Source: a virus. Taken from it: a stretch of DNA of 64,000 bases. The notes under the pieces were generated by a model. It did no database searches. It worked only from the letters and a program-made list of their open reading frames with translations, and had not been told where the DNA came from. Shown piece by piece: positions 3,246 to 36,008 of the stretch (the stretch's first letter is position 1; the number at the start of each line of letters is the position of its first letter). The stretch is from IMG/VR virus record IMGVR_UViG_3300044833_000115, positions 2,758-66,757 of that record. The stretch is one strand, 5' to 3'. The translations under genes and the position numbers were made by a program.

Positions 3246-4154
3246 CTACGAGGTCGGGAAGCTGCCCCAGACCGCCCGGGGGTTCTTGTGGGCCAGGCCG
3301 AACCGCTCGTAGCCCATGACCAGCAGGTTGCCCGTGGTCGGATCGACTTGCATATCCATCTCGAAAGCGACACGTTCGTAGTAGGCGAGCCCCTTGACCG
3401 AGGTCAGCACGAACCACGCAAAGTTGGAGGTCAGGAACTCGTTGACCACGTAGCCGTCGGGCAGGGCGCCCGTGGAATACAATGCGGAGACATCGTTGTT
3501 GTTGGTGCCGACGCGCAGTTCGGTCTTGGTCAGCCGTTCCGCCGCCCACTGGAGCGCGATGGGAACCACCATCTTGCGCCCGCGTGTCATGCTGATCAGC
3601 CCGGCCTGGTCGGGGTAGACGCGGATCTGGTTCAGCGCGGTCTCCAGCGCGGCCTCGTTCAAGTCGAGGTCGGTGGTCGGCCGGTTGGCATAGTTGCCGT
3701 TGTCGATCGGGTGCACGGTGGAGAACAGGGCCACGCCATCGCCGCCCACCAACGGGTTGTAGGTGGTGCCGGTGTTGATGATGTTCGCCGCGAAGATCTC
3801 TTTCGTCTGGGCGAAGCTCTCCATCAAACCCATGGACTGCGGGTTGAAATTTTCTTTGTAAAGGTTGTCGTCCAGGGTCTCGCGGGTGATCGCGAAGCCC
3901 AGGCCCACCGCACGGTGCTCGATGTTGTAGACGAAACGTTCGCCCGGGGCGTTGTCGAACATCGTCGCCGCGCCCTCGGCCTTGAGTTGCGCCAGGCCGG
4001 TGTAGCGCATCTCGGCCACGCGTTCGATCGCCATCTTGGAGGTCGCGGTGTCGAAGATCTGCGTGTAACGCTTGGGAAGGTCTGGGTATTTCCCGGTGAT
4101 CTCGGCCAGGCCAGGCAGCAACAGATCGCGGATTTGAGCCCGATTGATTGCCAT
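3246..4154 (-). CDS. Major capsid protein (HK97 fold, Mu gpT-like)
   Basis: MAINRAQIRDLLLPGL start, GDGVALFSTVHP, C-terminal YERFGLAHKNPRAVWGS; RBS AGGAG; position downstream of scaffold. Confidence 0.9.
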   Translation of the reverse strand: MAINRAQIRDLLLPGLAEITGKYPDLPKRYTQIFDTATSKMAIERVAEMRYTGLAQLKAEGAATMFDNAPGERFVYNIEHRAVGLGFAITRETLDDNLYKENFNPQSMGLMESFAQTKEIFAANIINTGTTYNPLVGGDGVALFSTVHPIDNGNYANRPTTDLDLNEAALETALNQIRVYPDQAGLISMTRGRKMVVPIALQWAAERLTKTELRVGTNNNDVSALYSTGALPDGYVVNEFLTSNFAWFVLTSVKGLAYYERVAFEMDMQVDPTTGNLLVMGYERFGLAHKNPRAVWGSFPTS

Positions 4155-9519: not shown

Positions 9520-9785
9520 GACTGCGCCGTGTAGCCGTCCTCGAATTCCTTCTTCGGGCACACCGACTTGTAGCCGTCGCGGTAGCGCATCGCGTAGTCG
9601 CCGAGGGTGCAGCGCCTCACCATCATCGGTTCGGTGGTGACGAAGGACTCGGTCGAACAGTCAGGCAGCGACACGACAAGGCCGATGGGAAAATCCCCCG
9701 GCAGCGGGTTCAAAGGATACTCGAAACCAACAATCGGCGCGGCACTGACGACTTTGTGGGAGACGTATTTAGGCCAGTCGGTCAT
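9516..9785 (-). CDS. Conserved small phage domain (YxSHKxVxA...YxDGYxSxxPxxxFExGY)
   Basis: KYVSHKVVSAAPI...GDYAMRYRDGYKSVCPKKEFEDGY; coupled to the portal stop. Confidence 0.7.
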   Translation of the reverse strand: MTDWPKYVSHKVVSAAPIVGFEYPLNPLPGDFPIGLVVSLPDCSTESFVTTEPMMVRRCTLGDYAMRYRDGYKSVCPKKEFEDGYTAQS

Positions 9786-12139
9786 GGCTTTTTCTTTCCT
9801 GCTGGTTTCGCTGGCTTGGGCTTCATGCTCGCCACCTTGGTCGCAGTCTTGGCCGAGGTGTCGGTTGCGTGCCGGGCGGTGTCGGCCGAGGTTTTCGCAG
9901 TCTCGCGGGCCGTGGCCGCGCCGGTATCTGCAACATGGCGATCGGTGTCAGCTTGCGTCGCCGCGGTCGCCGCGCCAAGGGCCGCGGTGGTGTGCGCCGT
10001 ATGCGCCTCGATCCCGGCCTTGTGCTTGTCGGTGTCGGCCTTGATCTGGGCGGTGTGCACGGCGGTCGCCGCGTCGATCGCGGTGCCTTGCTGGTCGCGG
10101 GTGTGCTCGCTCGCCAGCCGGGCCTTCTCGATCTCCAGGCGGGTGTTCTCGACTTGCTCCTGGCTCGTCGCGGTGCGCTGGCGGGTCTCCATCTCCAGTT
10201 GCTTGTTCTGGGTTTCGCTCGCCATCTCGGCCTTCTTGTTCTCGTCCTCGATCTGCGCCTCGGCCGCCTTGCGTTGCAGATCCACGCTGGCCTGCTGCGC
10301 CTGCTGCATCTTGGCTTGCGCCTCCAGCATCCGCGCCTGGCCGATCAGCGGGTCGGGGGGGGCCGGGCCGGGGGGGCCACCGGCCGGCGGCGCGGCGGGC
10401 TGGGCCAGCACGAAGGCGTCGGCGTCGTTGACCCCGATCGTCTTCCAGGCCCGCTTATGCACCGCCGTCATGTCGTAGAGGGTCGGGTTCTGCTGCGCCA
10501 CGGTGACCAGGGCGGTGGCAAGCTGGATGCGGTGGATCTGGCTGGGCACGTTCGGGTCGGACGCCGGCAGCAGGTTGCAGTTGGCGAATTCGTCGGGCTT
10601 GTCCCATGGCCGCAGCGCGCCGGGCATCTTCGCCAGCGCCTCGGGGTTCTCGACAAAGCACTCCCTGATCAGTTCCAGTTCGCGCGCCTGGGCACGGTGC
10701 AGCCGCTTGTGCACGGCACTCATCGTCTGGGTAGACACCTCGATCATGCTCATCATGGTGCCGACCGGGACGTTGGTGCGGCCCTCGCCCATCTCGGTCT
10801 CCGCCATGCCGGCCATCCGCATGGAGTCCTGGCCGATCGCCTCGGCCAACTGCATGAACACCGGCGATACGTCCTTGTAGGGCATCGGCATCAGCGCTTT
10901 GCGGATGTCATCGAGGGAGCCGATGTCGATATCCGGCCACTCGCCAGGCCCCGGGTTGATGTCGTTGGTGCCCATCCTGACGGATTTGACCTTCACCCCG
11001 CCGGGCGCGTTGGAATACATCCCCGAGGTGACCAGCAGCCGCCAGATGCCGCGGAGCGCCTGGGTCTGGTTGCCCAGCAGGTGCATGAAGCCGAGGCAGA
11101 GAAAGTTGAAGCTGGGCACCATGCCGTAGTGCACGAACCGCTGGCGGCGCTTGAACTGGTCGTCGCCATCCTTCCAGCCGCGCCTGACCGCCAGCACCTT
11201 CCGCGACTGCTTGTCGATCGTGCAGATGTAGGACAGCGGCAGATCGGGGAGTTTGCGGTCATCGATCCCGTAGTCACCCAGGTCCAGGTCGGCAGTGATC
11301 TCGTAGATTTCGTGCGGCACATCCTTCGGCCGCGCCTGGATGCCGCTCGTTCCCTGCACCCGCTCCTGGGCGATCCGCAGCATGTCCATCGACGGTTGCG
11401 CGCTGCCCAGGTCTTCGTCGCACCAGTCGGCGAACTTCTGCATCCGCTTGACCATGACGGTGGACATTTCGGAGCGGTGCGTCACCCGGAGGGCTGTTTC
11501 CAGGTCGGTCGCGTCCTCGGAGACGATCAGATCCTCGATCCCGACCGTCTCGGACACCGGCCGCTTGCGCAGCGGGTGCATGTAAACCTTCTTGAAGGCG
11601 TTGCCCGAGTAGAACAGGCCGAACAGCATCCGGTCGGTGTCGGGGTAGTACTCGGGCGCCCCGCTGGTCAGGTAGGTGTTGATATCGGTCTGGAACGCCG
11701 CGGCCAGGTCATCGCCCTCGGCAGATCCGCCGGCGACGTTCTCGACCTTGCACGGCCCACCGGCCGGCATCAGTTCCGCTCCCGCGGCCGACTGCGCACG
11801 CACCACCGCTTCCAACAGCAGCGGGTGGCCTATCTGGCTGGTCTTGGCGTTCTTGTCGTTCTTGGTTTCCAGGCCCAACAGGTCGATGCCGTTGGTGTAG
11901 TTGGCCAGGAACCCCTCGCGGCTCTTGATGTCCATCTCGACGCCATCGAGCAGTTCCTCGGCGATCCCGGCCTCATCCAGTTCGTCGCGCAGGGCGAGGT
12001 TTTCGTGAAACCCCTTGGTCGGGTCATTCGATCGGCGAGCACTCGGGGCCTTGATCGTCACACCACCGTCGGGGTCTATCTCCACGACGGTTTCGGAGGT
12101 CCCCAGGCCGAAGCCCGGGATCTGACTCATTGCGTTCAC
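9782..12139 (-). CDS. Portal protein (P22-like) with long C-terminal coiled-coil barrel
   Basis: 785 aa, HPLLLEAV, GNAFKKVY, RVTHR, PGEWPDID, PVGTMM; follows terL. Confidence 0.9.
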   Translation of the reverse strand: MNAMSQIPGFGLGTSETVVEIDPDGGVTIKAPSARRSNDPTKGFHENLALRDELDEAGIAEELLDGVEMDIKSREGFLANYTNGIDLLGLETKNDKNAKTSQIGHPLLLEAVVRAQSAAGAELMPAGGPCKVENVAGGSAEGDDLAAAFQTDINTYLTSGAPEYYPDTDRMLFGLFYSGNAFKKVYMHPLRKRPVSETVGIEDLIVSEDATDLETALRVTHRSEMSTVMVKRMQKFADWCDEDLGSAQPSMDMLRIAQERVQGTSGIQARPKDVPHEIYEITADLDLGDYGIDDRKLPDLPLSYICTIDKQSRKVLAVRRGWKDGDDQFKRRQRFVHYGMVPSFNFLCLGFMHLLGNQTQALRGIWRLLVTSGMYSNAPGGVKVKSVRMGTNDINPGPGEWPDIDIGSLDDIRKALMPMPYKDVSPVFMQLAEAIGQDSMRMAGMAETEMGEGRTNVPVGTMMSMIEVSTQTMSAVHKRLHRAQARELELIRECFVENPEALAKMPGALRPWDKPDEFANCNLLPASDPNVPSQIHRIQLATALVTVAQQNPTLYDMTAVHKRAWKTIGVNDADAFVLAQPAAPPAGGPPGPAPPDPLIGQARMLEAQAKMQQAQQASVDLQRKAAEAQIEDENKKAEMASETQNKQLEMETRQRTATSQEQVENTRLEIEKARLASEHTRDQQGTAIDAATAVHTAQIKADTDKHKAGIEAHTAHTTAALGAATAATQADTDRHVADTGAATARETAKTSADTARHATDTSAKTATKVASMKPKPAKPAGKKKP

Positions 12140-12945
12140 CAGGCAAATCCCTCGGCCGTTCGTCGCTCACGCGCACCAGCATCGTTGGCATCACGCCGCG
12201 CCGGGTCGGCCGCAGGCATCCACAGGGAAGCTCCCAAACATCGAGATCACACTGGCCCATTTCGGGGCGGCGTAACCATCCCATTTCGATCGCGGTTCGC
12301 TGAACCACGATCATCCGCTGTCGCCAAGATACGTCTTCAGCGCGGCCATCAGCCGCGCCCACCAGCCAGGTTTCTTCGGCGGATCGGGCAGCGGGTATTT
12401 CATCCCAGGATCGATGCTTTCCATCCGTTCCTCTTGAAAATCGGCCGCAGATCGTAGTCGTGGCACCCGATCGCCCACTTGAGGATCGGCGCCGCGGCGA
12501 TGCAGCGGCGGCTATGCGTCAGTTGTTCCATGACGATCCCGGCGACGAAGTGATCGGCGACCACGCGCACCAGGATCTCGCCCTCGATCACCCCCAGCAC
12601 TGGCCGGTCCACCAGTCCCCCACCGCGATCAGCGTCATCCAGAACATCATAGTCGCGATTGTCAGCAGCGCGATCGTGCTCAGACCACGCGCGGCCGACG
12701 GGTACGCATGAATGGTCACCACTTCCCGTTGCGCAGGATCTCGGTCACCAGGGCGGGGTCGGGGGGACATGAGCATTCCGGCCACGTGCATCCTTCAGGG
12801 CTGAAGTATGGCGCACACATGAACGGCTGGCGCCGCGGTTCGACAGTCTCGGCGATGATCAGCGGCCCACCAGGATACCCGGCGGCGTCACCAATTTGCG
12901 GCAGGAATTCGTCCCGGCGATCAGCGCTCGACATGGCTACACCCC

Positions 12946-15609
12946 TCACACGCCATACTGCTCGCGGATGCTGGGAGCGTTGCCCTTGAAGGTCAGCCCT
13001 TCGAGCCGTTCGGTCTCGACTTCATCGGTGTGCTGGACAACACCCAGGTCGCGCAGCTTCTTCACGCCCGCGCTCACGGTGTCCGTGAGGTCTTTCCACT
13101 TGCTCCGCGGAAACTGCGAAACCTCGTCCATGACCATATCGGCCCATTTGCGGGCTGGTGCAAAGACCAATCCAGCCGAGAACGCGGGGGAGACCGCGTG
13201 CAGACGGGCAACCTTGTCGCCCTTCGGCGACTCCGCGAAGATGGTGAACTCCCCCTCACGCATCAGCCGACGCAGTTCCTGCATCACCGATAACCCGCTC
13301 GCCTTGGCCTCGATCAGCACCGCATCAGCCTTCCGCCGGCGCGCGGTATCGAGGATCTTCAACGTGAGCGCGCGCAGTTCCAGCCGCTCACGCCAGGCCT
13401 CCAACAGGATCACCTTGGGATTGCCGCTCATCTCGAACGAGCCCCAGACGGTGCACGCCGACCAATCGTTCTCTTCCTTCTCGGTGTAGGCGGTGTCCAC
13501 GGACAGCAGAATGTAATCCAGGTCGGGGTAAAGCATCCGCAACACCTTCGTCCCGTCCACATCGACCTCGCGCGTCCAACTGTCCTCCTGCCCCTCGGGC
13601 GGCCAGACGCGCCACCACTCCCGCGGAATGATTCCACCGCCCCGCGTGGTCGGGATCTGGTTCATCTGCCCGGCCCAGGAGTGCGGCCCCATCAGCCGCT
13701 CGGTCTTCACCGCCCAGGCAGGGCTGAACCGGGCCGGCCAGAGCATCGCGCCCTCGATCTTGCGCGGATCATCGAAGCCGATGACGGTGTGACAGTGCCG
13801 CCGGCTGTCGTACTCCATCGGCAACATCAGGTGGACGATGCTGCTGCCGCCGGGCTCGGCCAGGACGTGCCCCGACAGGTCGTTTTCGTGCAGCCGCTGC
13901 ATGACGATGACCTCGGCGCCGTGCACCGGGTCGTTGGATCGCGTGCGCCACACTTCGTCGTAGGCGCGCAGCGTCGCGTTGCGCTGAAGATCGCTTTCGA
14001 CCTCATCCGGCTTGGTCGGATCATCGACAATCCGGATCGCGCCGCCCTTGCCCAGGCTTTCAGGGATGCCGGTCGATATCCGGCTTCCGCCCTCCAGGGT
14101 GTCGTACTGGGACTGATTGTCGCGGTCGCGGGCGATCCGCACCCGATCGCCCCATCGCGCCTGATACCACTCGCTGCCGATCAGCCGGCGCGCAGTCACG
14201 CCGTCCGCTTCGGCCTTGTTGGCGCCGTAGGAGGCGCACAGGAACCGCACGCCGGCGCCGCGCAGGGGCAATTCCTCATCCGGCTCCAGCGCCCAGGTCC
14301 AGCACGGCCAGGCGATGGCGATCAGGTTGGTGTTGTGCGTCGGGTTTAGCTGGCGCCCGACCAGATACAGCCCATCAGGCCGATCCACCTGGATTGACCG
14401 CGCGCCTGTCTTCTCGATCGGGCCGATAGAGCGGATGCCCACCGCCCGTTGCGGGGAGAGGATCGTGTTTTGCTTCCGAGGGATGCGTGTCGGGAGACGC
14501 ATCGTTGGCTGGAAGCAAACGCGAAACATCGTCTTTCGACCCTGGATCGGCCGGCCATTGATCAGTCGCGGGCGCTCGCGAGGTTCTTCTGAAATCACGT
14601 AAGGCCGCTGGCCCATCGTGGTCAGTAGATCGACAATGCCATCACGAAGCCGCGGCATCGCCGTCGCTATGTAAACCCTACCGTCCCGATCCACGCCGCC
14701 ATCGGTATCCACCAGCCCGGCCAGCAGTTGCAGCCGCTGTTCGTAGCTGGAGCGCAGGTAATTTTCGGGGATGTGCTTGTCGCCCAGCACCTTGAGGGCG
14801 CCCATGGCGGTATAGAAACCGCCTTTGAAGTCGGCGTAGTGCACACCGGTAACGGGATGAACTCGGCGCTGGCTAACGACACAACCGCCGTCGACCATCG
14901 CCTCGACAACCCCGGCATCCCGCTCGACATATGCGATCCTGGCCTGCCGACTCGACCCATCCCCAAGCCAAGCCCCGAGCGCATACGGGTGGATGGGCAA
15001 CAGGCTGGCATGTGGGAATTCCAGGGGATCGATTTCTGGAAGCTGGAAGCGAGCACGGCCGCGGGGCCATACCCCCCGCTGCGCCATATCCCACGTTTCC
15101 ATCGTCTTGCGACGCCGCTCAGGCAAACGCTCACCACGGTCAATGACCGTCCACTCGTGATTCGGGTGACAGCGGATCACCTCGCCGTTCGTCAGTGTGA
15201 CAGGAACAACCTCATCCACGTCAGCCGATAGCCCGATGATCGTAGTTGGCTGGCCATCAGGCCCGAATACCTGATCCCCAATCTTCAGATCGCCATGCGT
15301 GGACCATCCTGCCGTTGTCAGAACCGGCGTATCATGGGCACACGCCTTACCGGTTCGCGGCGGCTGGTTGATCAGCAATCGGACGATCTGCCCGGCGGTC
15401 ACCGCTTCGAGGTGCTCGGCAATCGCCCCGATATGCCAGTTCGACATGAACGGCGAACTGTCGAACGCGCCCCACGACTGCGCCAGGAACTCCGCCAGGG
15501 ACGCCTCGCACGCCTCCTGGCTTTCGCGCAGTTCGATCATCCGCTTTAGCATCACCGCCCGGCGGATCTTGGCCGGGCTCAATGTCGCGATGCTGGGAGG
15601 TAGGGCCAT
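12946..15609 (-). CDS. terL: Terminase large subunit containing an intein
   Basis: Walker A NQPPRTGK|T split by the intein, Walker B IVDDP, VIVMQRLH, RNase H-like SVDTA...IEAKASG...DLTD; likely start ATG 15609. Confidence 0.93.
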   Translation of the reverse strand: MALPPSIATLSPAKIRRAVMLKRMIELRESQEACEASLAEFLAQSWGAFDSSPFMSNWHIGAIAEHLEAVTAGQIVRLLINQPPRTGKACAHDTPVLTTAGWSTHGDLKIGDQVFGPDGQPTTIIGLSADVDEVVPVTLTNGEVIRCHPNHEWTVIDRGERLPERRRKTMETWDMAQRGVWPRGRARFQLPEIDPLEFPHASLLPIHPYALGAWLGDGSSRQARIAYVERDAGVVEAMVDGGCVVSQRRVHPVTGVHYADFKGGFYTAMGALKVLGDKHIPENYLRSSYEQRLQLLAGLVDTDGGVDRDGRVYIATAMPRLRDGIVDLLTTMGQRPYVISEEPRERPRLINGRPIQGRKTMFRVCFQPTMRLPTRIPRKQNTILSPQRAVGIRSIGPIEKTGARSIQVDRPDGLYLVGRQLNPTHNTNLIAIAWPCWTWALEPDEELPLRGAGVRFLCASYGANKAEADGVTARRLIGSEWYQARWGDRVRIARDRDNQSQYDTLEGGSRISTGIPESLGKGGAIRIVDDPTKPDEVESDLQRNATLRAYDEVWRTRSNDPVHGAEVIVMQRLHENDLSGHVLAEPGGSSIVHLMLPMEYDSRRHCHTVIGFDDPRKIEGAMLWPARFSPAWAVKTERLMGPHSWAGQMNQIPTTRGGGIIPREWWRVWPPEGQEDSWTREVDVDGTKVLRMLYPDLDYILLSVDTAYTEKEENDWSACTVWGSFEMSGNPKVILLEAWRERLELRALTLKILDTARRRKADAVLIEAKASGLSVMQELRRLMREGEFTIFAESPKGDKVARLHAVSPAFSAGLVFAPARKWADMVMDEVSQFPRSKWKDLTDTVSAGVKKLRDLGVVQHTDEVETERLEGLTFKGNAPSIREQYGV
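14332..15345 (-). mobile_element. 338-aa intein with LAGLIDADG homing endonuclease (class-3-like, Ala1)
   Basis: N-terminus ACAHDTPVLT, block B CHPNHEW, LGAWLGDG and LAGLVDTDG motifs, C-terminus PTHN followed by Thr+1. Confidence 0.9.
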
Positions 15610-15699
15610 GGGAATCATCCGCGATTGCGGCTGATCCCAACGGCACGTTGGCTCAGACGGGGTTAGAAGGCGGCTGCGGCACGCAGCCCCGAAGGCGGG
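15610..15699 (-). promoter_or_regulatory. Structured 5' leader of terL, paralogous to the capsid leader
   Basis: GGCTGC-GTGCC-GCAGCC, CTGAGCCAAC-GTGCC-GTTGGGATCAG, CCGC-AATC-GCGG, then ATGATTCCC-ATG. Confidence 0.7.
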
Positions 15700-15978
15700 T
15701 TAGATCCAAGTCTCCACGATGACAGGATCATCGCCCGGCTGTCGCGGCATCCGGCAAAGCCCGGGGGGAAGCAAGTCCCTCACAGCCTCTAGCGTCGCAG
15801 CGACCATGACGAAATCACAAGGAGCACCGGCGCGCGATGAATATGGCCTGGCGACGAAGACCCCCGGGAAGTCCTTTGGTTTTTCGTAGATTGTCCACAC
15901 CAGCAGATCGCCGGCCACGTGGGCTTTCCGCTGGAAACGCCAAGCGTCGTCCCGTGTGGGGTAGTCGCTCAAAGCCAC
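15700..15978 (-). CDS. Conserved phage hypothetical protein
   Basis: WTIYEKPKDFPGVFVAR...LPPGL...DDPVIVETW. Confidence 0.7.
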   Translation of the reverse strand: MALSDYPTRDDAWRFQRKAHVAGDLLVWTIYEKPKDFPGVFVARPYSSRAGAPCDFVMVAATLEAVRDLLPPGLCRMPRQPGDDPVIVETWI

Positions 15979-16238
15979 GCCTCAGCCCGCTCGCCAAAGC
16001 GGCCTTTATACCCCGCGATCATCAATTCCAGATCGGCGAGCCGCACCGGCACCTCGGGCAGCGCGCCGAGTTTTGCCGAGGTGCCTGGAATTGCCGCCGT
16101 GCAGATTGTCAGCGCCTGGCTATGGCTGTAGCGACCGGCGTGCGAAATCCGCCGCACATACCCCCGGCCACCCGGCCCCCACCACGCGCTGTGCTCATGC
16201 GACCAGATTAAATAATCGCCGTCGGAATTGTCAGCCAT
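15969..16238 (-). CDS. Conserved phage hypothetical protein
   Basis: YLIWSHEHSAWWGP..RGY....AGRYS pattern. Confidence 0.7.
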   Translation of the reverse strand: MADNSDGDYLIWSHEHSAWWGPGGRGYVRRISHAGRYSHSQALTICTAAIPGTSAKLGALPEVPVRLADLELMIAGYKGRFGERAEAWL

Positions 16239-16253
16239 CGGCGTGGTCCTTCC

Positions 16254-16655
16254 TCAGAACAGGCAAACCCGTGGATCGAGCCCCCGGGCCAGGGCATCGC
16301 GGGGCGGGCACAGCTTGTCGCCGGCCTGTTCCTGCCACCGGCACACCGCGGCCTTGGGGCAGTCGTAGGAGCGCGGCGCACCCACCAGCCGCCGCGGCTG
16401 ATTGGGGCCAACCACCAGCATCGCACCGCCGCAGGCGGCGGCTTCCTCGACCAGGGCCTGGATGCCACCGGTTGAACAGGCTATCGACCACCACGGACAG
16501 CCACCGGTCTCAATGTCATCATGGCCAGGGCAGGTGCCGCCATACTCCCCGGTCCAGGGCGAGCCGTTGGGCGCGATCAGCGGGCACATCGAGGCCGGGC
16601 ACTGCATCACCACATCAGCCATCGTTTCCACCATGGGGGCCGCCGTTGCTAACAT
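16254..16655 (-). CDS. Cys-rich hypothetical protein
   Basis: About ten Cys in CP/CR motifs; start uncertain. Confidence 0.5.
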   Translation of the reverse strand: MLATAAPMVETMADVVMQCPASMCPLIAPNGSPWTGEYGGTCPGHDDIETGGCPWWSIACSTGGIQALVEEAAACGGAMLVVGPNQPRRLVGAPRSYDCPKAAVCRWQEQAGDKLCPPRDALARGLDPRVCLF

Positions 16656-16839
16656 ACTGTTTTTGCGACTTGTTATAGGCCATCAACGCAGGCCACCGCG
16701 CGATGACCTTCGCTATATCAGCCGATGCCTGCGGGTCGCTGACACCGAACTTCTTCCGGATGTGCTCGCGGTTGATATAGCCCCAGATCTCCACGCTTTC
16801 CTTTATCCAGGCCAGACGCTGTTCAACGAACCAGGTCAC
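16615..16839 (-). CDS. Stand-alone CapW-like winged-helix DNA-binding protein (74 aa, no WYL domain)
   Basis: GTG at 16839 coupled to the upstream stop: [42 protein letters not shown]...[11 protein letters not shown]. Confidence 0.75.
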
Positions 16840-17059
16840 CCGGCGATCTGTCGGCGCAACCAGTCCGTCATGCCGGGCGAGATGTAGTCCAGATCCTCCG
16901 CCCGTTCGGCCAGAAGCCGCTCCGCCGTCCAGCCGCGGCGCAGCATCGTGGCGAAACCGCTGTGGGCATCTGCTTCCGTGAGCGGCGTTGGTCGCGGCTC
17001 GGAGGGACGCTCGCAGCAGGGGCAAATCATGACGCGGGGCAATGCTCATCCCTCCCTTT

Positions 17060-17332
17060 CTAGCAGCCCTCGTTTCCAGGACTGCCCGGACTGCCGGGGG
17101 GTTTCAGGTGGATTTCAGTGATCTCGGTCACCCGCCCCGGCTGCTTGGGCAGCGCGTTCACCACCGCCTGGTGGGCATCGCTTAGGGTGAACCCTGGATC
17201 GTCCATGATGACCGCGAACACGCCGGCAGAATGACGCGCATCAATGTTCCGCATCAACTCCACCACTTCAGCAAATTCACCGTCGCTAAACGGCCCGGTG
17301 ACGATGAGCGTCCTGACCTTCCAATTCTCCAC
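17060..17332 (-). CDS. Hypothetical protein
   Basis: 90 aa, RBS GAGGGGG, globular composition. Confidence 0.55.
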   Translation of the reverse strand: MENWKVRTLIVTGPFSDGEFAEVVELMRNIDARHSAGVFAVIMDDPGFTLSDAHQAVVNALPKQPGRVTEITEIHLKPPGSPGSPGNEGC

Positions 17333-17396
17333 GAGCCGCGGCCCCCCTCAGTGAGCGGGAATGTTAGCGCGACATTTTGTCTACGTCACCGCCCCA

Positions 17397-17846
17397 TCAG
17401 AACCGCGAGCCGGGGGTCCTCGGCCGGCGCCGGATCACGTGCCCATGGCCGATCCCCACAATCTGCCCGAGCGCTGCCGCCGCGTTCGCCGCCTTCACGT
17501 GCGCCATGTAGTCGATCGGGCAATACCCGAACCCCTGGGACGCCAGCCCGCGCAGCGTGTGCGCCTCTTTCCGCATGTAGGGCTCGCCTTCGCGGGGGCA
17601 TATGCGCTGGATCGCCACCATGCGCCCGGCCGTGTCATCGTACTGGCCAGCAACAGGATCGAACCACAGATCCGTCACGACGTAATAGACAACCACCTGT
17701 CCAGGGTTGAGAGCGCTCGCCCACGCGCGCTGTAGCTGGTCGCCAACCTTCAGCCCGGCAAAGCGCAGCGCCCGTGGAGATCGCCGGCGCTCCCGCGGCT
17801 TCATCTCCACCCAGCGACGGCCGGTGTCGTCAGTTATCCAGGTCAT
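17397..17846 (-). CDS. Hypothetical protein
   Basis: RBS GGAG before ATG 17846; YYVVTDLWFDP...TLRGLASQG. Confidence 0.6.
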   Translation of the reverse strand: MTWITDDTGRRWVEMKPRERRRSPRALRFAGLKVGDQLQRAWASALNPGQVVVYYVVTDLWFDPVAGQYDDTAGRMVAIQRICPREGEPYMRKEAHTLRGLASQGFGYCPIDYMAHVKAANAAAALGQIVGIGHGHVIRRRPRTPGSRF

Positions 17847-17853
17847 ACTCCCG

Positions 17854-18078
17854 TCATCTTCCACGATCCCCGCGGATCGGCCGCGCGGGACGCAGGGCCT
17901 CGCCTGGAACACCATCGAACACCGTCGACGATGCAATCCGTCCGGTGGCAAGACAGGTCGCGCAGTAGCGCGCGCCGCCGCGGCTGGCGAACGGCTGGTG
18001 GCATTTGCCCAGGCAAACGCGCTTCTCCGTGCCGGGCGGCGGCGTCCAGTCCTCGTTGTCAGCAACCCGTAGTGCCAT
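17854..18078 (-). CDS. Small zinc-finger protein
   Basis: RVCLGKCHQPFASRGGARYCATC. Confidence 0.6.
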   Translation of the reverse strand: MALRVADNEDWTPPPGTEKRVCLGKCHQPFASRGGARYCATCLATGRIASSTVFDGVPGEALRPARPIRGDRGR

Positions 18079-18192
18079 CGCTCTCTCCCTCAGTGCCACG
18101 GCAAGCGCATCGTGCCAGGAGGCGCGATCGACGCGAAGAACAGGAACATCACCGCCGCCACCGCGAGCGCCCAGAGCACCGTCTTGGCGAGA

Positions 18193-18948
18193 TCAAATAA
18201 CCCCCTCATCAACGCCCCCAGGAAGAAGGCCAGCCGAGAATTCGTCAACGTCGGGCGGATACTCCCCACGCTCCAACAGCGGAGCTAGGTTGAGCCACGC
18301 CTTACGCAGTAGCCCGACCAAACCTTGCTGTTCCCAATCCCCCCCCACATCGAGCAAGACAGTCATCTGCGTTTGGTGGGGGAACTCTACCGTCACAGTG
18401 CCGTCAGGGCTTTTCACACTGCGCACCATTGCTGACCAAAAGGCGTCTTCCTTGATCTTCAGCCTCACCTGGTCCCAGCCACAGTCCGAAGTCTCGAACC
18501 AGAAAACAGCGTTGCCACCATGCCCGGCATCACCCCCCATCAGACCAGTCGCGTGCGCCCCGCCCTGCACACATTCCGGCGCCCCATCAGAACCCCCACC
18601 GGGTTGGCTCCTACTCAACGCCGTCATCGCACCAACAGCGGCCATAACAAGCGGGTCAGCGTGCATCGCGTCATAGATCAACAGCTTCTCACGTAGCCGA
18701 TTGATGCACTCAGTCACCTCTTCCGCGGCTTTACGGCGAATGCCCGGGTCGGGGTCACTAAGCTGGTCAGTTATGTCGGGGATCGGGGGCGGTTCGCTGG
18801 GCATCTTCAACATTCCTCCTTCATCAGCGGCAGTCGCGGCAACTTCTCCACCCCTGCCCCAATCCGCTCGCCGCTCCGCTACAAAATATTCCCCGTCCTT
18901 CATGAGAACCCATCGTCTGCCCGTCAGACCAGGGGAGGCTTCAGCCAT
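18193..18948 (-). CDS. Hypothetical protein with atypical, less GC3-biased codon usage
   Basis: 251-aa ORF; start uncertain. Confidence 0.5.
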   Translation of the reverse strand: MAEASPGLTGRRWVLMKDGEYFVAERRADWGRGGEVAATAADEGGMLKMPSEPPPIPDITDQLSDPDPGIRRKAAEEVTECINRLREKLLIYDAMHADPLVMAAVGAMTALSRSQPGGGSDGAPECVQGGAHATGLMGGDAGHGGNAVFWFETSDCGWDQVRLKIKEDAFWSAMVRSVKSPDGTVTVEFPHQTQMTVLLDVGGDWEQQGLVGLLRKAWLNLAPLLERGEYPPDVDEFSAGLLPGGVDEGVI

Positions 18949-18996
18949 CTCAACACTCCAAAATTTCTGAAATTTTTGGGGATGGGCAGGCGGGCA

Positions 18997-19698
18997 TCAG
19001 CGCACCCAGCGCGCAACGAGCAGATACGAATGGTTCTTCCGCGCGTGCTGTTGCGTGGTGTGCCGCATCAGCGGAACCACCGTTTGCCGCAGGATAAATT
19101 CGTCCTCGATCAAAAAACCGATCATGGGCAGCACCGTCATAATCTGGACGTGCGTCAGCTTCTGCTTGTGATCAGCTACGGCCGGCTGGCATTTGATGAA
19201 CAACAGCCCGCCGCGCTTGAGCACCCGCCGCGCCTCCAGGATGCCGCCGAGATAGAGCGCGACCACGTTCTCGTGGCACATATTCCCGGCGTTCCTGTAG
19301 CATTTGTTCAGACTTTCCTTGGCGTTACCGCCGCCATTCAGGTAGGGCGGGTCAAGCACAACGCCGTCAAAGCTGTCGTCCTCATAGGGCAACCGCCTCA
19401 AATCAACACCGGTCTCTAGATCAGACCGATGCAAGTCGTACAACCCCGCCGGCACGTTGCGCCAGAAAACACCGCGCCCATAGGTCACGTCCGCAATCTT
19501 GTCGCCAGGCTTCGCATACATGCCCAGGGCGACGGGAAACAGGTCGGCGTTCGTCCCCTGGACACAAGTCAACACCGGGCCTGAAGGCTTCACCGGCTCC
19601 AAGCCATCCACGGGCTCCACGGCATCCCACACCTCGCGGGCCGCTGCCGCCGCATCATTCAACAGCGTGTGGTCAAACCAGCCGGCGTCATCGGTCAT
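18997..19698 (-). CDS. Orphan DNA amino-methyltransferase (N6A/N4C type)
   Basis: SAM motif IADVTYGRGVFW and catalytic VLDPPY; no cognate nuclease nearby. Confidence 0.82.
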   Translation of the reverse strand: MTDDAGWFDHTLLNDAAAAAREVWDAVEPVDGLEPVKPSGPVLTCVQGTNADLFPVALGMYAKPGDKIADVTYGRGVFWRNVPAGLYDLHRSDLETGVDLRRLPYEDDSFDGVVLDPPYLNGGGNAKESLNKCYRNAGNMCHENVVALYLGGILEARRVLKRGGLLFIKCQPAVADHKQKLTHVQIMTVLPMIGFLIEDEFILRQTVVPLMRHTTQQHARKNHSYLLVARWVR

Positions 19699-20047
19699 CG
19701 CTCTACCTTATTTTTCTGATTTTTTTTGGCATGAGCGGGCGGGCAGTAGGTAGCGTTTTCGATCGTCTCCCCCGAGGGCGGTGGGGGGGTCCGCTCCAGG
19801 CCCTGGCGATCCCTCGCCGGCCTTGCCCCCGGCCACCGCCCAATGGGGGAGGGCGAGTGCAGCCCACCCCAGCCCGAGATCGAGGGCGAAGGCGATGGTG
19901 ATGGTGATCGAGCGCGTCATGTCAGTCATCGATCACCCGTTCGTTGCTCGATCGTAGCGCCCGATCCAACCCGGCCACCTGATCAAACGATCGTTTGTAG
20001 AAGTGGCGGCGTCTGTATGGCGCGGCAACAACGACGAAACTCCCTGT

Positions 20048-34375: not shown

Positions 34376-34593
34376 ACATCGTAGCCATTCTCGAAGGCAT
34401 CATCTCATCGGTGCCGGAAGCCATCGCCCTATGGAAGCGGATCGAACCGCTGGTCGGGCTGACGCCCGGCGCGGACGACACGGTAATCGCCGCCATTACC
34501 GCCGACGTGCCGATCGTGCATGAGGCGGTGACCCTCGCTCACACGGCGATCGCCGACCTGATCGCTGCGCATCAGCCGGCGGCGACTTTATGA
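34372..34593 (+). CDS. Small hydrophobic protein between endolysin and GH26
   Basis: ATGA-coupled on both sides; MNIVAILEGIISSVPEAIALW. Confidence 0.6.
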   Translation: MNIVAILEGIISSVPEAIALWKRIEPLVGLTPGADDTVIAAITADVPIVHEAVTLAHTAIADLIAAHQPAATL

Positions 34594-36008
34594 GCGTCAC
34601 CGCGGCCACCGTGCTGTCGATGCTGAAAGGCATCGCCGGCAAAATGGTGCTGTCGTTCCAGTTCACCGAAATCAAAGGTTTGCCCCAGATCCAGGCCGGC
34701 GGCGCCATCGCGCAGATCGAGTCTTCAACCGGGCACTGGCTGGGCGGCATCGGCGGCGACTACTGGTGGTACGGCAGCACCGCCCCCACCGCCGATACGA
34801 CGTTCAACCAGGCCGCGATCCCATACGCCGAGGCGGGCGGGCTGATCACCTTGCTCTTGTCGCTGCCGAACCCCACGACCGGCGGGCCTTCGCCCGACGT
34901 TTCCACCCTCGATGCGGGCGGGCTGCTGACCACCGGCACGGCGACGAACAGCGCTTTCCTGCGGATGCTCGACAGCGTGGCCGTGGGGCTTCAGGAACTG
35001 GCCACGGCTGGGGTGCCGGTGCTGTTCCGCCCGTACCACGAGTTGAACGGCGGCTGGTTCTGGTGGGGTGCGGGGCTGCTGTCGCCGCAGCAGTTCATCG
35101 CGCTTTGGAAATTCACCCACGATTACTTCACCAAAACCAAGGGCTTGAGCAACCTGCTATGGGTCTGGAGCGTGAACGCCGGCATGAGCGGGATGCCTGC
35201 CCTCGATCGTTACCCCGGCGATGCCTATGTCGATCTGACCGGGCTCGACTTCTACGCCTCCGATCCAGCCTCGGCCGCGGCCGACTACGACATCCTGATG
35301 ACCTTGGGCAAAACCGTCTGCCTGTCGGAATTCGGTAGCGGTGGCCCCTCCGCCGCGGATGGCTCCTTCCAGATGACCGTGTTGAACGCCGCGCTGGCAG
35401 ACCAGATGCCGCAGGCGGTGTTCTGGCAACAATGGTGGGCGCCCTGGGGCATGGAACTCATGCAGAGCACCCAGGCATCCCTGGATGATCCCCGCACGGG
35501 CAACCGCGGCGACTTCTCCCCGGGCGCGGTGACCCCGCCGCCGGTGGTGACCCCTCCGCCCGTGGTGACCCCGCCCCCCGGCGCGAAGCCGTCGCCGGAT
35601 GGCGCGATCGTCACCGCCGGCGGGGCCGTGCTGATCGATGCGGCCGGCGAAGCCTGGTCGGTTTCAAGCAGCGGCGTGGTGCTGATGAACGGGGTCGCCG
35701 TCGCCGGCGGTGAAGGCACGGCGGCGCTGACCTTCTACACGCCGACGGTCTACGGCCAGGATGCCGCAACCAAGAACTGGTACGCCTGGCGCAACGGAAG
35801 TTGGAATGGCCCCGCGACGTTGCCGATCAAAACGTCACCGCTGCCTCCCCCGACGCCTACCCCCCCGCCGACGCCGACGCCCCCTCCCCCGCCCAGCGTC
35901 ACCCACCTGACGGTGATGACCAAGGTCATGCAGGCCGGCGCGGCGCTGACCCAGGTCAACGCGATGCTGACTTCGATCATGACCGACCTCCCGAGCCTGA
36001 AGCCGTGA
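34590..36008 (+). CDS. Glycoside hydrolase family 26 (mannanase-like) with Pro/Thr linkers and accessory domain
   Basis: FRPYHELNGGWFWWG (acid/base), YPGDAYVDLTGLDFY, LSEFG (nucleophile); VTPPP repeats. Confidence 0.9.
   Translation: MSVTAATVLSMLKGIAGKMVLSFQFTEIKGLPQIQAGGAIAQIESSTGHWLGGIGGDYWWYGSTAPTADTTFNQAAIPYAEAGGLITLLLSLPNPTTGGPSPDVSTLDAGGLLTTGTATNSAFLRMLDSVAVGLQELATAGVPVLFRPYHELNGGWFWWGAGLLSPQQFIALWKFTHDYFTKTKGLSNLLWVWSVNAGMSGMPALDRYPGDAYVDLTGLDFYASDPASAAADYDILMTLGKTVCLSEFGSGGPSAADGSFQMTVLNAALADQMPQAVFWQQWWAPWGMELMQSTQASLDDPRTGNRGDFSPGAVTPPPVVTPPPVVTPPPGAKPSPDGAIVTAGGAVLIDAAGEAWSVSSSGVVLMNGVAVAGGEGTAALTFYTPTVYGQDAATKNWYAWRNGSWNGPATLPIKTSPLPPPTPTPPPTPTPPPPPSVTHLTVMTKVMQAGAALTQVNAMLTSIMTDLPSLKP

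What the first reader, a model, noticed from the sequence alone, without database searches (positions are those of the whole stretch)
16615..16839. Sensor-less CapW-like winged helix: possible phage super-repressor of host defence operons
Seen: a complete 74-aa gene coupled to both neighbours, matching the N-terminal wHTH pattern of CapW-type WYL regulators (W..EQRL..I......G.INR..I...FGVS.PQAS.D......P....Y..S.K.YV), with no WYL/WCX domain following. Known: CapW and BrxR repress CBASS/BREX promoters, and the WYL domain is the ligand (ssDNA) sensor that releases repression. Inference: a DNA-binding-only mimic could occupy defence operators insensitive to the infection signal or poison host dimers, which would be a transcription-level anti-defence strategy.
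Basis: partly seen in the sequence, partly recalled or inferred. Interest (0 to 1): 0.75.

Follow-up and report, generated by a model that had tools for sequence, protein, structure and literature searches.

The report
Phage stand-alone CapW-type winged helix
A complete, probably lytic phage carries a small gene that encodes only the DNA-binding head of the bacterial repressors (CapW/BrxR) that keep anti-phage defence operons switched off; it may let the phage hold those operons shut, but its DNA target is untested.

Summary
Window 16615-16839 (minus strand) is a real 74-aa gene, overlapping both neighbouring ORFs. By sequence profile, profile-profile comparison and predicted fold it matches the N-terminal winged helix of CapW/BrxR. 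The four CapW residues shown by mutagenesis to be needed for DNA binding are kept. The 66.8-kb phage record has no WYL or WCX domain and no remnant of one.

The gene belongs to a large family of stand-alone heads. In my tree, 149 short and 175 full-length sequences separate at one branch. A second, independent head-only lineage exists in Stenotrophomonas phage Sonora.

Additional results here:
- The full-length relatives sit head-to-head with Pycsar, CBASS and Lamassu-type genes.
- They carry a conserved ACTATAC/TATACGC-type box in their promoters: 53 of 71 loci.
- That box is absent upstream of all 12 short genes examined, and it is not enriched in this phage.
- A homodimer is predicted.

The "signal-blind repressor of host defence promoters" reading therefore stays the leading single hypothesis, at about 0.35, and is not demonstrated. 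Head-only and full-length forms rarely share a genome (2 of 10), and published work says CapW-dependent induction is not needed for defence.

This scan has already noted the same kind of gene on other DNA: 42 notes in at least 40 genomes. My literature searches found no description of it.

The parts
16615..16839 (-). 74-aa stand-alone CapW/BrxR-type winged helix-turn-helix gene (GTG start, TGA stop)
   Evidence: ORF and translation. PDB profile hit to CapW at E 1.9e-7. hhalign against full-length regulators at 99.7%. Fold model pLDDT 87 with helices 2-19, 24-31 and 35-48 and strands 53-56 and 61-64. Foldseek ranks 1-12 are CapW/BrxR. GC3 0.72.
16717..16740 (-). Codons for S34-D41 (SDPQASAD), the start of the recognition helix; with R24 it holds the counterparts of the CapW DNA-binding residues
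   Evidence: Sm CapW R32A and S42A/Q45A/S47A were designed to disrupt DNA binding, and the equivalent Ec CapW mutants lost binding (PMC9122588, passages). By the alignment these are R24, S34, Q37 and S39 here. All four are invariant in the 12 short forms. In 149 short representatives S34, Q37 and S39 are kept in 139, 135 and 126, and the R24 column is about 90% conserved.
16836..17042 (-). Upstream 68-aa ORF of unknown function; its stop overlaps the wHTH start (GTGA)
   Evidence: GC3 0.82. No Pfam, PHROG or NCBIfam hit. No homologue next to the short gene in 9 viral loci.
16254..16622 (-). Downstream cysteine-rich ORF (122 aa from ATG 16622; the open frame reaches 16655); its start overlaps the wHTH stop (ATGGCTGA); not a WYL remnant
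   Evidence: hhalign against full-length regulators gives probability 0.1%. No family hit. No usable Atlas hit.

Best explanation
SHOWN. This is a real phage gene for a 74-residue protein that is only the winged-helix DNA-binding head of the CapW/BrxR family of defence-operon repressors. The DNA-contact residues are intact, and the ssDNA-sensing WYL and WCX domains are absent. It belongs to a large family of stand-alone heads that is distinct from the full-length regulators.

INFERRED. The head pairs with itself through residues at the end of helix 1 and in helix 2, which the short family has changed relative to the full-length proteins. It then binds the conserved ACTATAC/TATACGC-type box that its full-length relatives keep in the promoter region shared with Pycsar, CBASS, Lamassu-type and other defence operons. 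Without a sensor it would stay bound when phage-induced ssDNA releases the host repressor, so the operon could not be induced during infection or while the cell is being primed.

The confidence below is for the whole statement. The shown part alone I put at about 0.95.
For: Homology and fold.

DNA-reading residues: R24, S34, Q37 and S39 correspond to Sm CapW R32, S42, Q45 and S47. All four are invariant in 12 short forms. The recognition-helix motif S-x-P-Q-A-S-x-D is among the best conserved columns in 149 short representatives.

Family:
- 1726 proteins at E <= 1e-3 in the 50%-identity library.
- Of the best 150, 133 are 130 aa or shorter.
- 7 of 9 IMG/VR loci are stand-alone genes of 66-76 aa.
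- 149 short and 175 long sequences are split by one branch with support 0.90.

Full-length relatives are defence regulators. Of 54 divergent upstream neighbours, 10 match Pycsar cyclase (best E 3.6e-229), 6 match CBASS cyclases, 5 SAVED, 3 patatin and 15 a LmuA model.

Operator box:
- Words such as AACTATA, ACTATAC and CTATACG occur in 20-25 of 70 upstream regions.
- In 2318 windows of GC <= 50% from the same loci they occur in 14-28.
- 53 of 71 long loci have at least one word within 200 bp upstream, and 42 have three or more.
- Density is 18.9 per kb upstream and 0.30 per kb elsewhere.
- A viral contig outside the discovery set that encodes a full-length form (L009) has a cluster at -110 to -72.
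- The published 30-bp Ec CapW site contains CGTATAAT, one base from the box core (PMC11662680, passage).

The box is absent where the short genes are:
- 0 of 12 short loci have a word within 1 kb upstream.
- The whole phage has 6 word hits against 7.6 +/- 2.9 expected, and none are paired.
- The phage has no recurrent palindrome, and the short loci share none.

The short gene sits inside tightly packed operons with no upstream intergenic region.

Neighbourhoods are early or accessory: a DNA methylase in this window, a Lar restriction-alleviation domain protein directly upstream in L007, and RecT, HerA-like and AAA genes elsewhere.

Homodimer model:
- ipSAE 0.51, against a best control of 0.01.
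- In the tool's calibration this mark was reached by 20 of 30 proteins solved as pairs and by 1 of 23 solved as single chains.
- The runs agree in 100% of contacts, and the partner's pLDDT is at least 85.
- The interface is residues 14, 17-19, 26, 29-30.
- At 14, 26 and 30 the short family mostly has E, H and K, where the full-length forms have F, D and F.

A second, independent head-only lineage falls on the full-length side of the tree: Stenotrophomonas phage Sonora CPT_Sonora_088 and a Luteimonas copy. Phages have therefore acquired this architecture at least twice.
Against: - No binding, repression or fitness effect was tested.
- The host of this phage is unknown.
- Only 2 of 10 bacterial genomes that carry a head-only gene also carry a full-length gene with this head: G004 and G005. 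About 8% of sampled Caulobacterales-type and Rhizobiales-type genomes have a full-length form, so the enrichment is not significant.
- Strict paired-box patterns found nothing in 5 head-bearing genomes. Only 12 of 71 true long loci satisfy those patterns, so this test is weak.
- The box words were discovered and counted on the same 71 loci. The one locus outside that set is L009.
- That the box is the binding site is inferred from position and conservation only.
- 18 of 71 long loci lack the box, including a whole Opitutae-type clade, so specificity does vary within the family.
- In the wider short family the residue after Q-A-S is variable (A 42, K 21, I 19, L 14 of 149) and P is kept in only 103 of 149. 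Many heads may therefore read other sequences.
- The domain-swapped WYL/WCX scaffold that spaces the two heads in CapW is missing (PMC9122588). The predicted dimer could be recalled from solved CapW/BrxR dimers.
[quoted passage not shown] Blocking induction may therefore bring a phage little.
Confidence: 0.35

Rival explanations
1. It is the phage's own transcription factor. A small dimeric wHTH binds phage promoters, for example as an early-to-late switch just upstream of the packaging genes, and merely shares ancestry with CapW/BrxR.
For: Most small phage HTH proteins regulate phage genes (general knowledge). Here the gene lies about 1 kb upstream of the large terminase on the same strand. 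In L004 it lies between homologues of the terminase and of the 785-aa protein 9782-12139. Head-only and full-length forms do not co-occur in genomes: 2 of 10. Variable residues in the recognition helix across the short family allow other specificities.
Against: The phage has no recurrent palindrome: 31 sites with 8-nt arms against 18-35 in shuffles, and none recurs. The 12 short loci share no palindrome arm beyond shuffles. The gene has no upstream intergenic region or box, unlike the full-length forms. Neighbours are not conserved among 9 viral loci. The DNA-contact residues are the same as in the bacterial repressors across very different phages, which is unusual for phage-specific regulators.
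Confidence: 0.3
2. It serves another DNA transaction of the phage: a recombination directionality factor or excisionase, a packaging-site recogniser, or a replication-origin or partition adaptor.
For: In three prophage-type loci (L008, L013, L090) the short gene lies 2-4 kb from an integrase, near a DUF5131/phrog_2045 gene. In this window it is close to the terminase. Winged helices are common in excisionases and small terminases (general knowledge).
Against: This phage record, rated 100% complete, has no tyrosine or serine recombinase, so an excisionase role cannot apply here. At 74 aa it is too short for known small terminases, and three ORFs separate it from the large terminase. Elsewhere it sits by RecT, HerA-like or Lar-type genes, not by packaging genes.
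Confidence: 0.12
3. It is a dominant-negative partner that pairs with the head of a host CapW/BrxR protomer and pulls the repressor off DNA, or misaligns it. This would raise host defence expression, for example to the benefit of a prophage.
For: The predicted self-interface uses the helix 1 / helix 2 face. In CapW the two heads lie adjacent (PMC9122588). Some family members are prophage-borne.
Against: The interface residues differ between the short and full-length families: E/H/K against F/D/F. The CapW dimer is held mainly by the domain-swapped WYL and WCX domains (PMC9122588), so a free head should compete poorly. This phage has no integrase, and de-repressing defence would harm a lytic phage.
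Confidence: 0.05
4. It is a decaying fragment of a captured full-length regulator and has no function.
For: Truncated copies of full-length forms do exist in bacterial contigs: L019 is close to the long form of L034 on a 3.3-kb contig, and L076 is an open frame of 112 aa.
Against: There is no WYL/WCX remnant. Invariant residues are conserved over homologues of 38-74% identity. 133 of the best 150 cluster representatives are 130 aa or shorter. The short forms fall on their own side of the tree. The gene has coding-type GC3 and overlaps both neighbours.
Confidence: 0.02

Closest known systems
CapW (wHTH-WYL-WCX repressor of CBASS; PDB 7TB6 S. maltophilia, 7TB5 P. aeruginosa PA17, 9C5G R. leguminosarum)
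   Same: The N-terminal winged helix matches: profile E 1.9e-7 and Foldseek TM 0.82-0.83, rmsd 0.8-1.2 A, 31-32% identity. The residues whose mutation abolishes DNA binding are kept.
   Different: There is no WYL sensor, no WCX domain and no linker helices. It is encoded by a phage inside an operon, not divergently from a defence operon, and has no operator-like box upstream. Residues on the helix 1 / helix 2 face are changed.
BrxR (BREX-associated wHTH-WYL-WCX regulator; PDB 7T8K/7T8L Acinetobacter, 7QFZ E. fergusonii)
   Same: The same fold: Foldseek ranks 3-10 and 12, TM 0.75-0.80. If BrxR S37 is equated with S34 here, the counterparts of BrxR's DNA-contact residues R11, S37 and Q40 are present, and probably also those of K64 and Y66. 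That register is my own and was not printed by a tool (contacts from PMC9122589).
   Different: Sequence similarity is weaker than to CapW (profile E 0.74). BrxR's base-reading R38 corresponds to D35 here. The same domain losses apply as for CapW.
Stenotrophomonas phage Sonora CPT_Sonora_088 (QYW02189.1, annotated 'hypothetical protein')
   Same: A 75-aa head-only CapW-type winged helix in a cultured phage, set in a tightly packed array of small genes. The Sonora genome has no paired STATAS boxes.
   Different: It belongs to a separate lineage. It groups with a Luteimonas copy on the full-length side of the tree and is 37.5% identical to this protein. It is uncharacterised.
Small viral winged-helix DNA binders such as SSV1 F-112 (PDB 2VQC)
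   Same: Stand-alone proteins of about 70 residues with a winged-helix fold (Foldseek rank 14).
   Different: The match is much weaker (TM 0.61, rmsd 2.7 A, 18% identity, E 0.014), and no sequence relationship was detected.

Membership tests
CapW/BrxR family (wHTH-WYL-WCX defence-operon repressors) | N-terminal winged helix of the CapW/BrxR type | tested here: met
   PDB profile hit to CapW at E 1.9e-7. hhalign against 20 full-length members: 99.7%, E 1e-25. Foldseek ranks 1-12 are CapW/BrxR.
CapW/BrxR family (wHTH-WYL-WCX defence-operon repressors) | DNA-binding residues of the head (Sm CapW R32, S42, Q45, S47) | tested here: met
   They correspond to R24, S34, Q37 and S39 by the alignment, and all four are invariant in 12 short forms. 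The mutagenesis is from PMC9122588.
CapW/BrxR family (wHTH-WYL-WCX defence-operon repressors) | Central WYL ligand (ssDNA) sensor domain | tested here: not met
   PF13280 has no match in the whole phage record, while the control found it in 7 of 14 reference genomes. tblastn of 48 full-length members gives only the head. The downstream ORF has hhalign probability 0.1%.
CapW/BrxR family (wHTH-WYL-WCX defence-operon repressors) | C-terminal WCX domain and a domain-swapped dimer | tested here: not met
   The protein ends 11 residues after the wing. No C-terminal homology is found anywhere in the phage.
CapW/BrxR family (wHTH-WYL-WCX defence-operon repressors) | Gene placed next to (usually divergent from or heading) a defence operon, with an operator in its own promoter | tested here: not met
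   The gene is inside a phage operon and overlaps both neighbours. No box words occur within 1 kb upstream in 12 short loci, against 53 of 71 long loci. The neighbours have no defence-family hits.
CapW/BrxR family (wHTH-WYL-WCX defence-operon repressors) | Homodimer that binds a palindromic operator and represses transcription | tested here: inconclusive
   The homodimer is only predicted: ipSAE 0.51 against a best control of 0.01. In the tool's calibration the mark was reached by 20 of 30 solved pairs and 1 of 23 single chains. DNA binding and repression cannot be tested with these tools.
Stand-alone (WYL-less) CapW-type head family, precomputed Pfam tag PF26109 only | Length about 65-130 aa, head only, and placement on the short side of the short/long split | tested here: met
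   5 of 5 near-length homologues carry PF26109 alone. 133 of the best 150 representatives are 130 aa or shorter. The tree split is 149 against 175 with support 0.90. PF26109 is not in the local Pfam copy, so I could not read its name.

The most novel reading that the evidence does not exclude
Phages have at least twice evolved a sensor-less copy of the reading head of the CapW-type defence repressors. Because the operator box of those repressors (ACTATAC/TATACGC-type repeats) is conserved across many proteobacterial lineages and into Planctomycetes, one small protein could act as a signal-blind master key. It would keep many unrelated defence operons (Pycsar, CBASS, Lamassu-type and others) from being induced. 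That would be a transcription-level anti-defence strategy that has not been described.
Probability: 0.3. Interest if true: 0.85.

Novelty: new variant of a known kind. Interest (0 to 1): 0.62.

Why it matters
Known phage counter-defences act on defence proteins or on their signalling molecules. A phage protein that occupies the operators of defence operons without being able to sense the infection signal would be a different kind of counter-defence.

It would also bear on an open question: what the WYL-controlled induction of defence is for. A 2026 preprint proposes that induction lets survivors out-titrate phage inhibitors (10.1101/2025.11.13.688357, abstract). A phage blocker of induction would be the expected counter-move.

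This analysis turns the idea into a concrete experiment. It names a candidate DNA box, the residues to mutate, and a cultured phage-host pair, Sonora and Stenotrophomonas maltophilia, the species in which one of the characterised CapW proteins was studied. If the head instead binds phage DNA, it is an ordinary small phage regulator with an interesting ancestry.

Tried and rejected
Family libraries. Pfam, PHROGs and NCBIfam gave no hit for the 74-aa protein or its two neighbours. The precomputed tag PF26109 is not in the local Pfam copy, and no paper in the library mentions it. I recall it as the BrxR/CapW-type winged-helix family, but that is unverified.

Similar DNA. blastn of window 12900-20000 against GenBank phages found nothing.

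Promoters and terminators. The scan of 12-31 kb gave counts at shuffle level, 3 against 3.6 and 9 against 11, so it says nothing about transcription units.

Operators on the phage side:
- Exact palindromes in the phage did not recur.
- Palindrome arms shared among the 12 short loci did not exceed shuffles.
- A positional consensus of the box was muddled, because the STATAS core is its own reverse complement. I therefore cite word counts only.
- Strict paired-box patterns in five head-bearing genomes found nothing. They recover only 12 of 71 true loci, so I give this little weight.

Co-occurrence of short and long forms in one genome was examined in 802 genomes of two orders plus 6 others and showed no clear association. 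Two matches (G217, 140-aa frame; G024, partial) and a few 167-231-aa frames were left unclassified.

A co-variation hint rests on two genomes only and I do not rely on it. In G005 both the prophage head (SQQLASAD) and the resident full-length form (SSQQASAD) lack the usual proline, and that long gene's promoter has AACTGG/TACTGG repeats instead of the box. G004 is similar.

Rejected readings:
- Small terminase and excisionase: reasons are given under the rivals.
- WYL remnant in the downstream ORF: one in-frame HSP at E 4.4 did not survive the profile test.

Other dead ends:
- The Atlas gave no usable hit for the downstream ORF.
- P0127, the top hit, is a 2756-aa tandem-repeat translation with 26 partial matches. 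I dropped it as an artefact.
- Three tblastn queries against 50,697 phage records found only phage Sonora.

Supplements were closed and I did not ask for them. The CapW operator figures and tables (PMC9122588) and Picton et al.'s Supplementary Table S6 of inverted repeats (PMC9122601) could confirm or contradict the box.

'No support' and 'no verdict' outcomes: none. The one complex job passed.
Full report
THE OBJECT. The window is bases 2758-66757 of an IMG/VR virus record of 66,757 bp that CheckV rates 100% complete. It has 65% G+C.

The flagged gene runs on the minus strand from GTG 16839 to TGA 16615 and encodes 74 residues. Its start overlaps the stop of a 68-aa ORF as GTGA. Its stop overlaps an ATG of the next ORF as ATGGCTGA. 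The list of ORFs also shows a 144-aa reading from an upstream ATG, and that reading is unlikely:
- In the gene's frame the extension has GC3 0.60.
- The overlapping 68-aa ORF has GC3 0.82, and the 74-aa gene 0.72.
- Every homologue begins just before the conserved tryptophan.

WHAT IT IS. Local Pfam, PHROGs and NCBIfam are silent, but the evidence for a CapW-type head is strong:
- The single sequence already finds CapW as its two best PDB hits, at E 0.0098 and 0.034.
- A profile of six short homologues raises this to 1.9e-7 for S. maltophilia CapW, 7.2e-6 for P. aeruginosa CapW and 0.0068 for R. leguminosarum CapW. BrxR scores 0.74.
- Profile-profile comparison of 12 short forms with 20 full-length regulators gives 99.7% probability and E 1e-25 over 72 columns.
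- The AlphaFold2 model (pLDDT 87.1) is a three-helix winged helix.
- Foldseek ranks 1-12 in PDB are all CapW or BrxR chains, with TM 0.75-0.83. The next fold, SSV1 F-112, scores 0.61.

Blankenchip et al. designed Sm CapW R32A and S42A/Q45A/S47A to disrupt DNA binding, and the equivalent E. coli CapW mutants lost binding (PMC9122588, passages read). By the alignment those residues are R24, S34, Q37 and S39 here, and all four are invariant in 12 short forms.

Nothing follows the head:
- PF13280 is absent from the whole record.
- 48 full-length relatives match only the head by tblastn.
- The downstream ORF is unrelated to the WYL-WCX part, with hhalign probability 0.1%.

THE FAMILY.
- Near-length relatives: 5 of 5 are 71-83 aa and carry only the precomputed tag PF26109.
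- Longer proteins: 113 of the 120 listed carry PF26109 + PF13280 + PF26107, the full repressor architecture, at 36-53% identity over the head.
- A profile search of 1.84 billion cluster representatives finds 1726 proteins at E <= 1e-3. Of the best 150, 133 are 130 aa or shorter, and one top hit is a repeat artefact.
- In IMG/VR, 7 of 9 confirmed loci encode stand-alone genes of 66-76 aa. One encodes a full-length regulator and one a 341-aa protein with an internal head.
- Among 80 bacterial loci, 71 are full-length (a further frame of about 154 aa was left unclassified), 5 are heads of the phage type, and 3 look like truncated or separate forms.
- Two of the bacterial heads lie in prophages, next to exonuclease, RecT-like, tail and integrase genes.
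- Heads are rare in bacterial genomes: 6 clear cases in 802 sampled. Full-length forms occur in about 8%.
- A FastTree of the 68 head columns splits 149 short from 175 long sequences at one branch, support 0.90.

That tree has an ascertainment caveat. The short sequences were picked with a short-form profile, and the long ones by shared words or a motif.

Adding four sequences I had left out changes the picture:
- The 75-aa product of Stenotrophomonas phage Sonora gene 088 pairs with a 72-aa Luteimonas copy.
- Both fall on the long side of the split. Phages therefore hold at least two independent head-only lineages.
- The other two added sequences look like truncated copies of full-length forms.

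WHERE IT SITS. The gene lies in a long minus-strand array:
- a DNA methylase-like gene at 18997-19698 (Pfam hit below the family's cut-off);
- several small unknown genes;
- the head gene;
- three more small ORFs;
- an 890-aa large terminase that carries an insertion with a weak homing-endonuclease match.

The plus-strand block at 30-36 kb holds ERF and YqaJ recombination genes and a GH26 glycosidase. There is no tyrosine or serine recombinase, so this copy is not an excisionase.

Neighbours are not conserved among the viral loci, except that L004 shares the terminase and the 785-aa protein. Elsewhere the head sits by RecT, HerA-like, AAA and DUF5131 genes and by an integrase. In L007 it lies directly after a protein with a Lar restriction-alleviation domain.

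Of 54 divergent upstream neighbours:
- 10 are Pycsar cyclases (best E 3.6e-229);
- 6 are CBASS cyclases;
- 5 carry SAVED;
- 3 carry patatin;
- 15 match a LmuA model.
These relatives are genuine defence regulators.

Their promoter regions share a box. Words such as AACTATA, ACTATAC, CTATACG and TATACGC occur in 19-25 of 70 distinct upstream regions, against 14-28 of 2318 background windows with GC <= 50% from the same loci. That is a 27-48-fold enrichment. Further counts:
- 53 of 71 loci have at least one word within 200 bp upstream.
- 42 have three or more.
- Density is 18.9 per kb there and 0.30 per kb elsewhere.

The boxes come as direct or inverted repeats, often next to GTCAAG, for example ...AACTATACGC...GCGTATAC....

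Three caveats apply. The words were found and counted on the same loci. 18 loci lack them, including an Opitutae-type clade. That they are the operator is an inference.

Two independent pointers support the inference:
- The full-length gene on viral contig L009, which was not in the discovery set, has a cluster at -110 to -72.
- The published 30-bp E. coli CapW site contains CGTATAAT (PMC11662680, passage).

THE TEST ON THE PHAGE SIDE.
- None of the 12 head-only loci has a box word within 1 kb upstream of the gene, and their overall density is at background.
- The whole phage has 6 word hits against 7.6 +/- 2.9 in Markov shuffles, none of them paired.
- Phage Sonora has no paired STATAS sites.
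- The phage has no recurrent palindrome of its own, and the head-bearing loci share none.

So the head has no obvious operator on phage DNA and is not autoregulated the way its relatives appear to be. If it reads what they read, its targets lie in host genomes.

HOW IT MIGHT WORK. In CapW and BrxR the two heads lie side by side. They are held by the domain-swapped WYL and WCX domains, and ligand binding rotates them off DNA (PMC9122588). A free head needs its own way to pair.

The complex predictor gives a homodimer with ipSAE 0.51, against 0.01 for the best of three controls:
- In the tool's calibration this mark was reached by 20 of 30 proteins solved as pairs and by 1 of 23 solved as single chains.
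- The runs agree in 100% of contacts, and pLDDT is at least 85.
- The pass may be recalled from solved CapW/BrxR dimers.

The interface is residues 14, 17-19, 26, 29-30. At positions 14, 26 and 30 the short family mostly has E, H and K, where the full-length forms have F, D and F. That would fit a surface remodelled after the sensor was lost, which is inference. A dimeric, sensor-less head on a defence operator would be a repressor that phage-induced ssDNA cannot remove.

WHAT SPEAKS AGAINST IT.
- Heads and full-length forms share a genome in only 2 of 10 head-bearing bacterial genomes. That is not clearly above the roughly 8% background.
- Strict paired boxes were not found in five such genomes, though that test recovers only 12 of 71 true loci.
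- Across the wider short family the proline and the residue after Q-A-S vary, so many heads may read other DNA.
[quoted passage not shown] The same preprint offers a possible benefit: induction lets survivors out-titrate phage inhibitors, and a phage might gain by preventing that.

VERDICT. The gene and its homology are certain. The anti-defence mechanism is the best single hypothesis, at about 0.35. It is followed by an ordinary phage regulator (0.30) and other DNA transactions (0.12). About 0.15 is left for roles I have not thought of.

My literature searches found no description of WYL-less phage heads (listings and abstracts; passages of five papers). Supplements were closed.

The scan's own notebook already holds 42 notes of this kind from at least 40 genomes, all 'partly supported'. 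I reached the same core reading independently.

Noticed in passing
window 12946-15618 (-): The 890-aa large terminase seems to carry an insertion. The L004 terminase aligns to residues 19-97, 432-631 and 651-873 only. Pfam gives Terminase_6C plus a weak homing-endonuclease match at 283-336 (E 0.00099, below the cut-off). The protein sequence shows intein-like features. This looks like an intein in the terminase.
   Followed up: partly
loci L014-L090 (full-length CapW-type regulators), -200 to 0 of each gene: A conserved box (AACTATAC / TATACGC words, direct and inverted repeats, often beside GTCAAG) lies in the promoter regions of CapW-type regulators across many proteobacterial lineages and into Planctomycetes. 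It is found in 53 of 71 loci. I could not find it stated in the text of the papers I read.
   Followed up: yes
L098 3983-4210 (Stenotrophomonas phage Sonora, CPT_Sonora_088); L079 8001-8216: A second head-only lineage that sits among the full-length forms in the tree. One copy is in a cultured S. maltophilia phage and one in Luteimonas terrae.
   Followed up: partly
L095/L096 (G005) and L094/L097 (G004): In both genomes that hold a prophage head and a full-length form, both proteins lack the usual proline of S-x-P-Q-A-S. In G005 the long gene's promoter has AACTGG/TACTGG repeats instead of the ACTATA box. With only two cases this may be chance.
   Followed up: partly
L007 2748-3461, directly upstream of the head gene at 3461-3682: A 238-aa protein with a Lar restriction-alleviation domain (E 2.9e-7) ends at the start of the head-only gene.
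   Followed up: no
L008, L013, L090: In three prophage-type loci the head gene lies near a DUF5131/phrog_2045 gene and 2-4 kb from an integrase.
   Followed up: no
window 39638-51664 (-): A single 4008-aa ORF with coding-type GC3 (0.82), followed by an ORF of 1132 aa. The 1132-aa protein has no Pfam hit. The 4008-aa ORF was not scanned.
   Followed up: no
window 34590-36008 (+): A 472-aa glycosyl hydrolase family 26 protein (E 1.6e-43) lies in the phage next to the ERF and YqaJ recombination genes.
   Followed up: no
protein P0127: A 2756-aa protein made of tandem repeats of about 55 residues scored best against the head profile through 26 partial matches. It looks like a translated satellite, not a relative.
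   Followed up: partly
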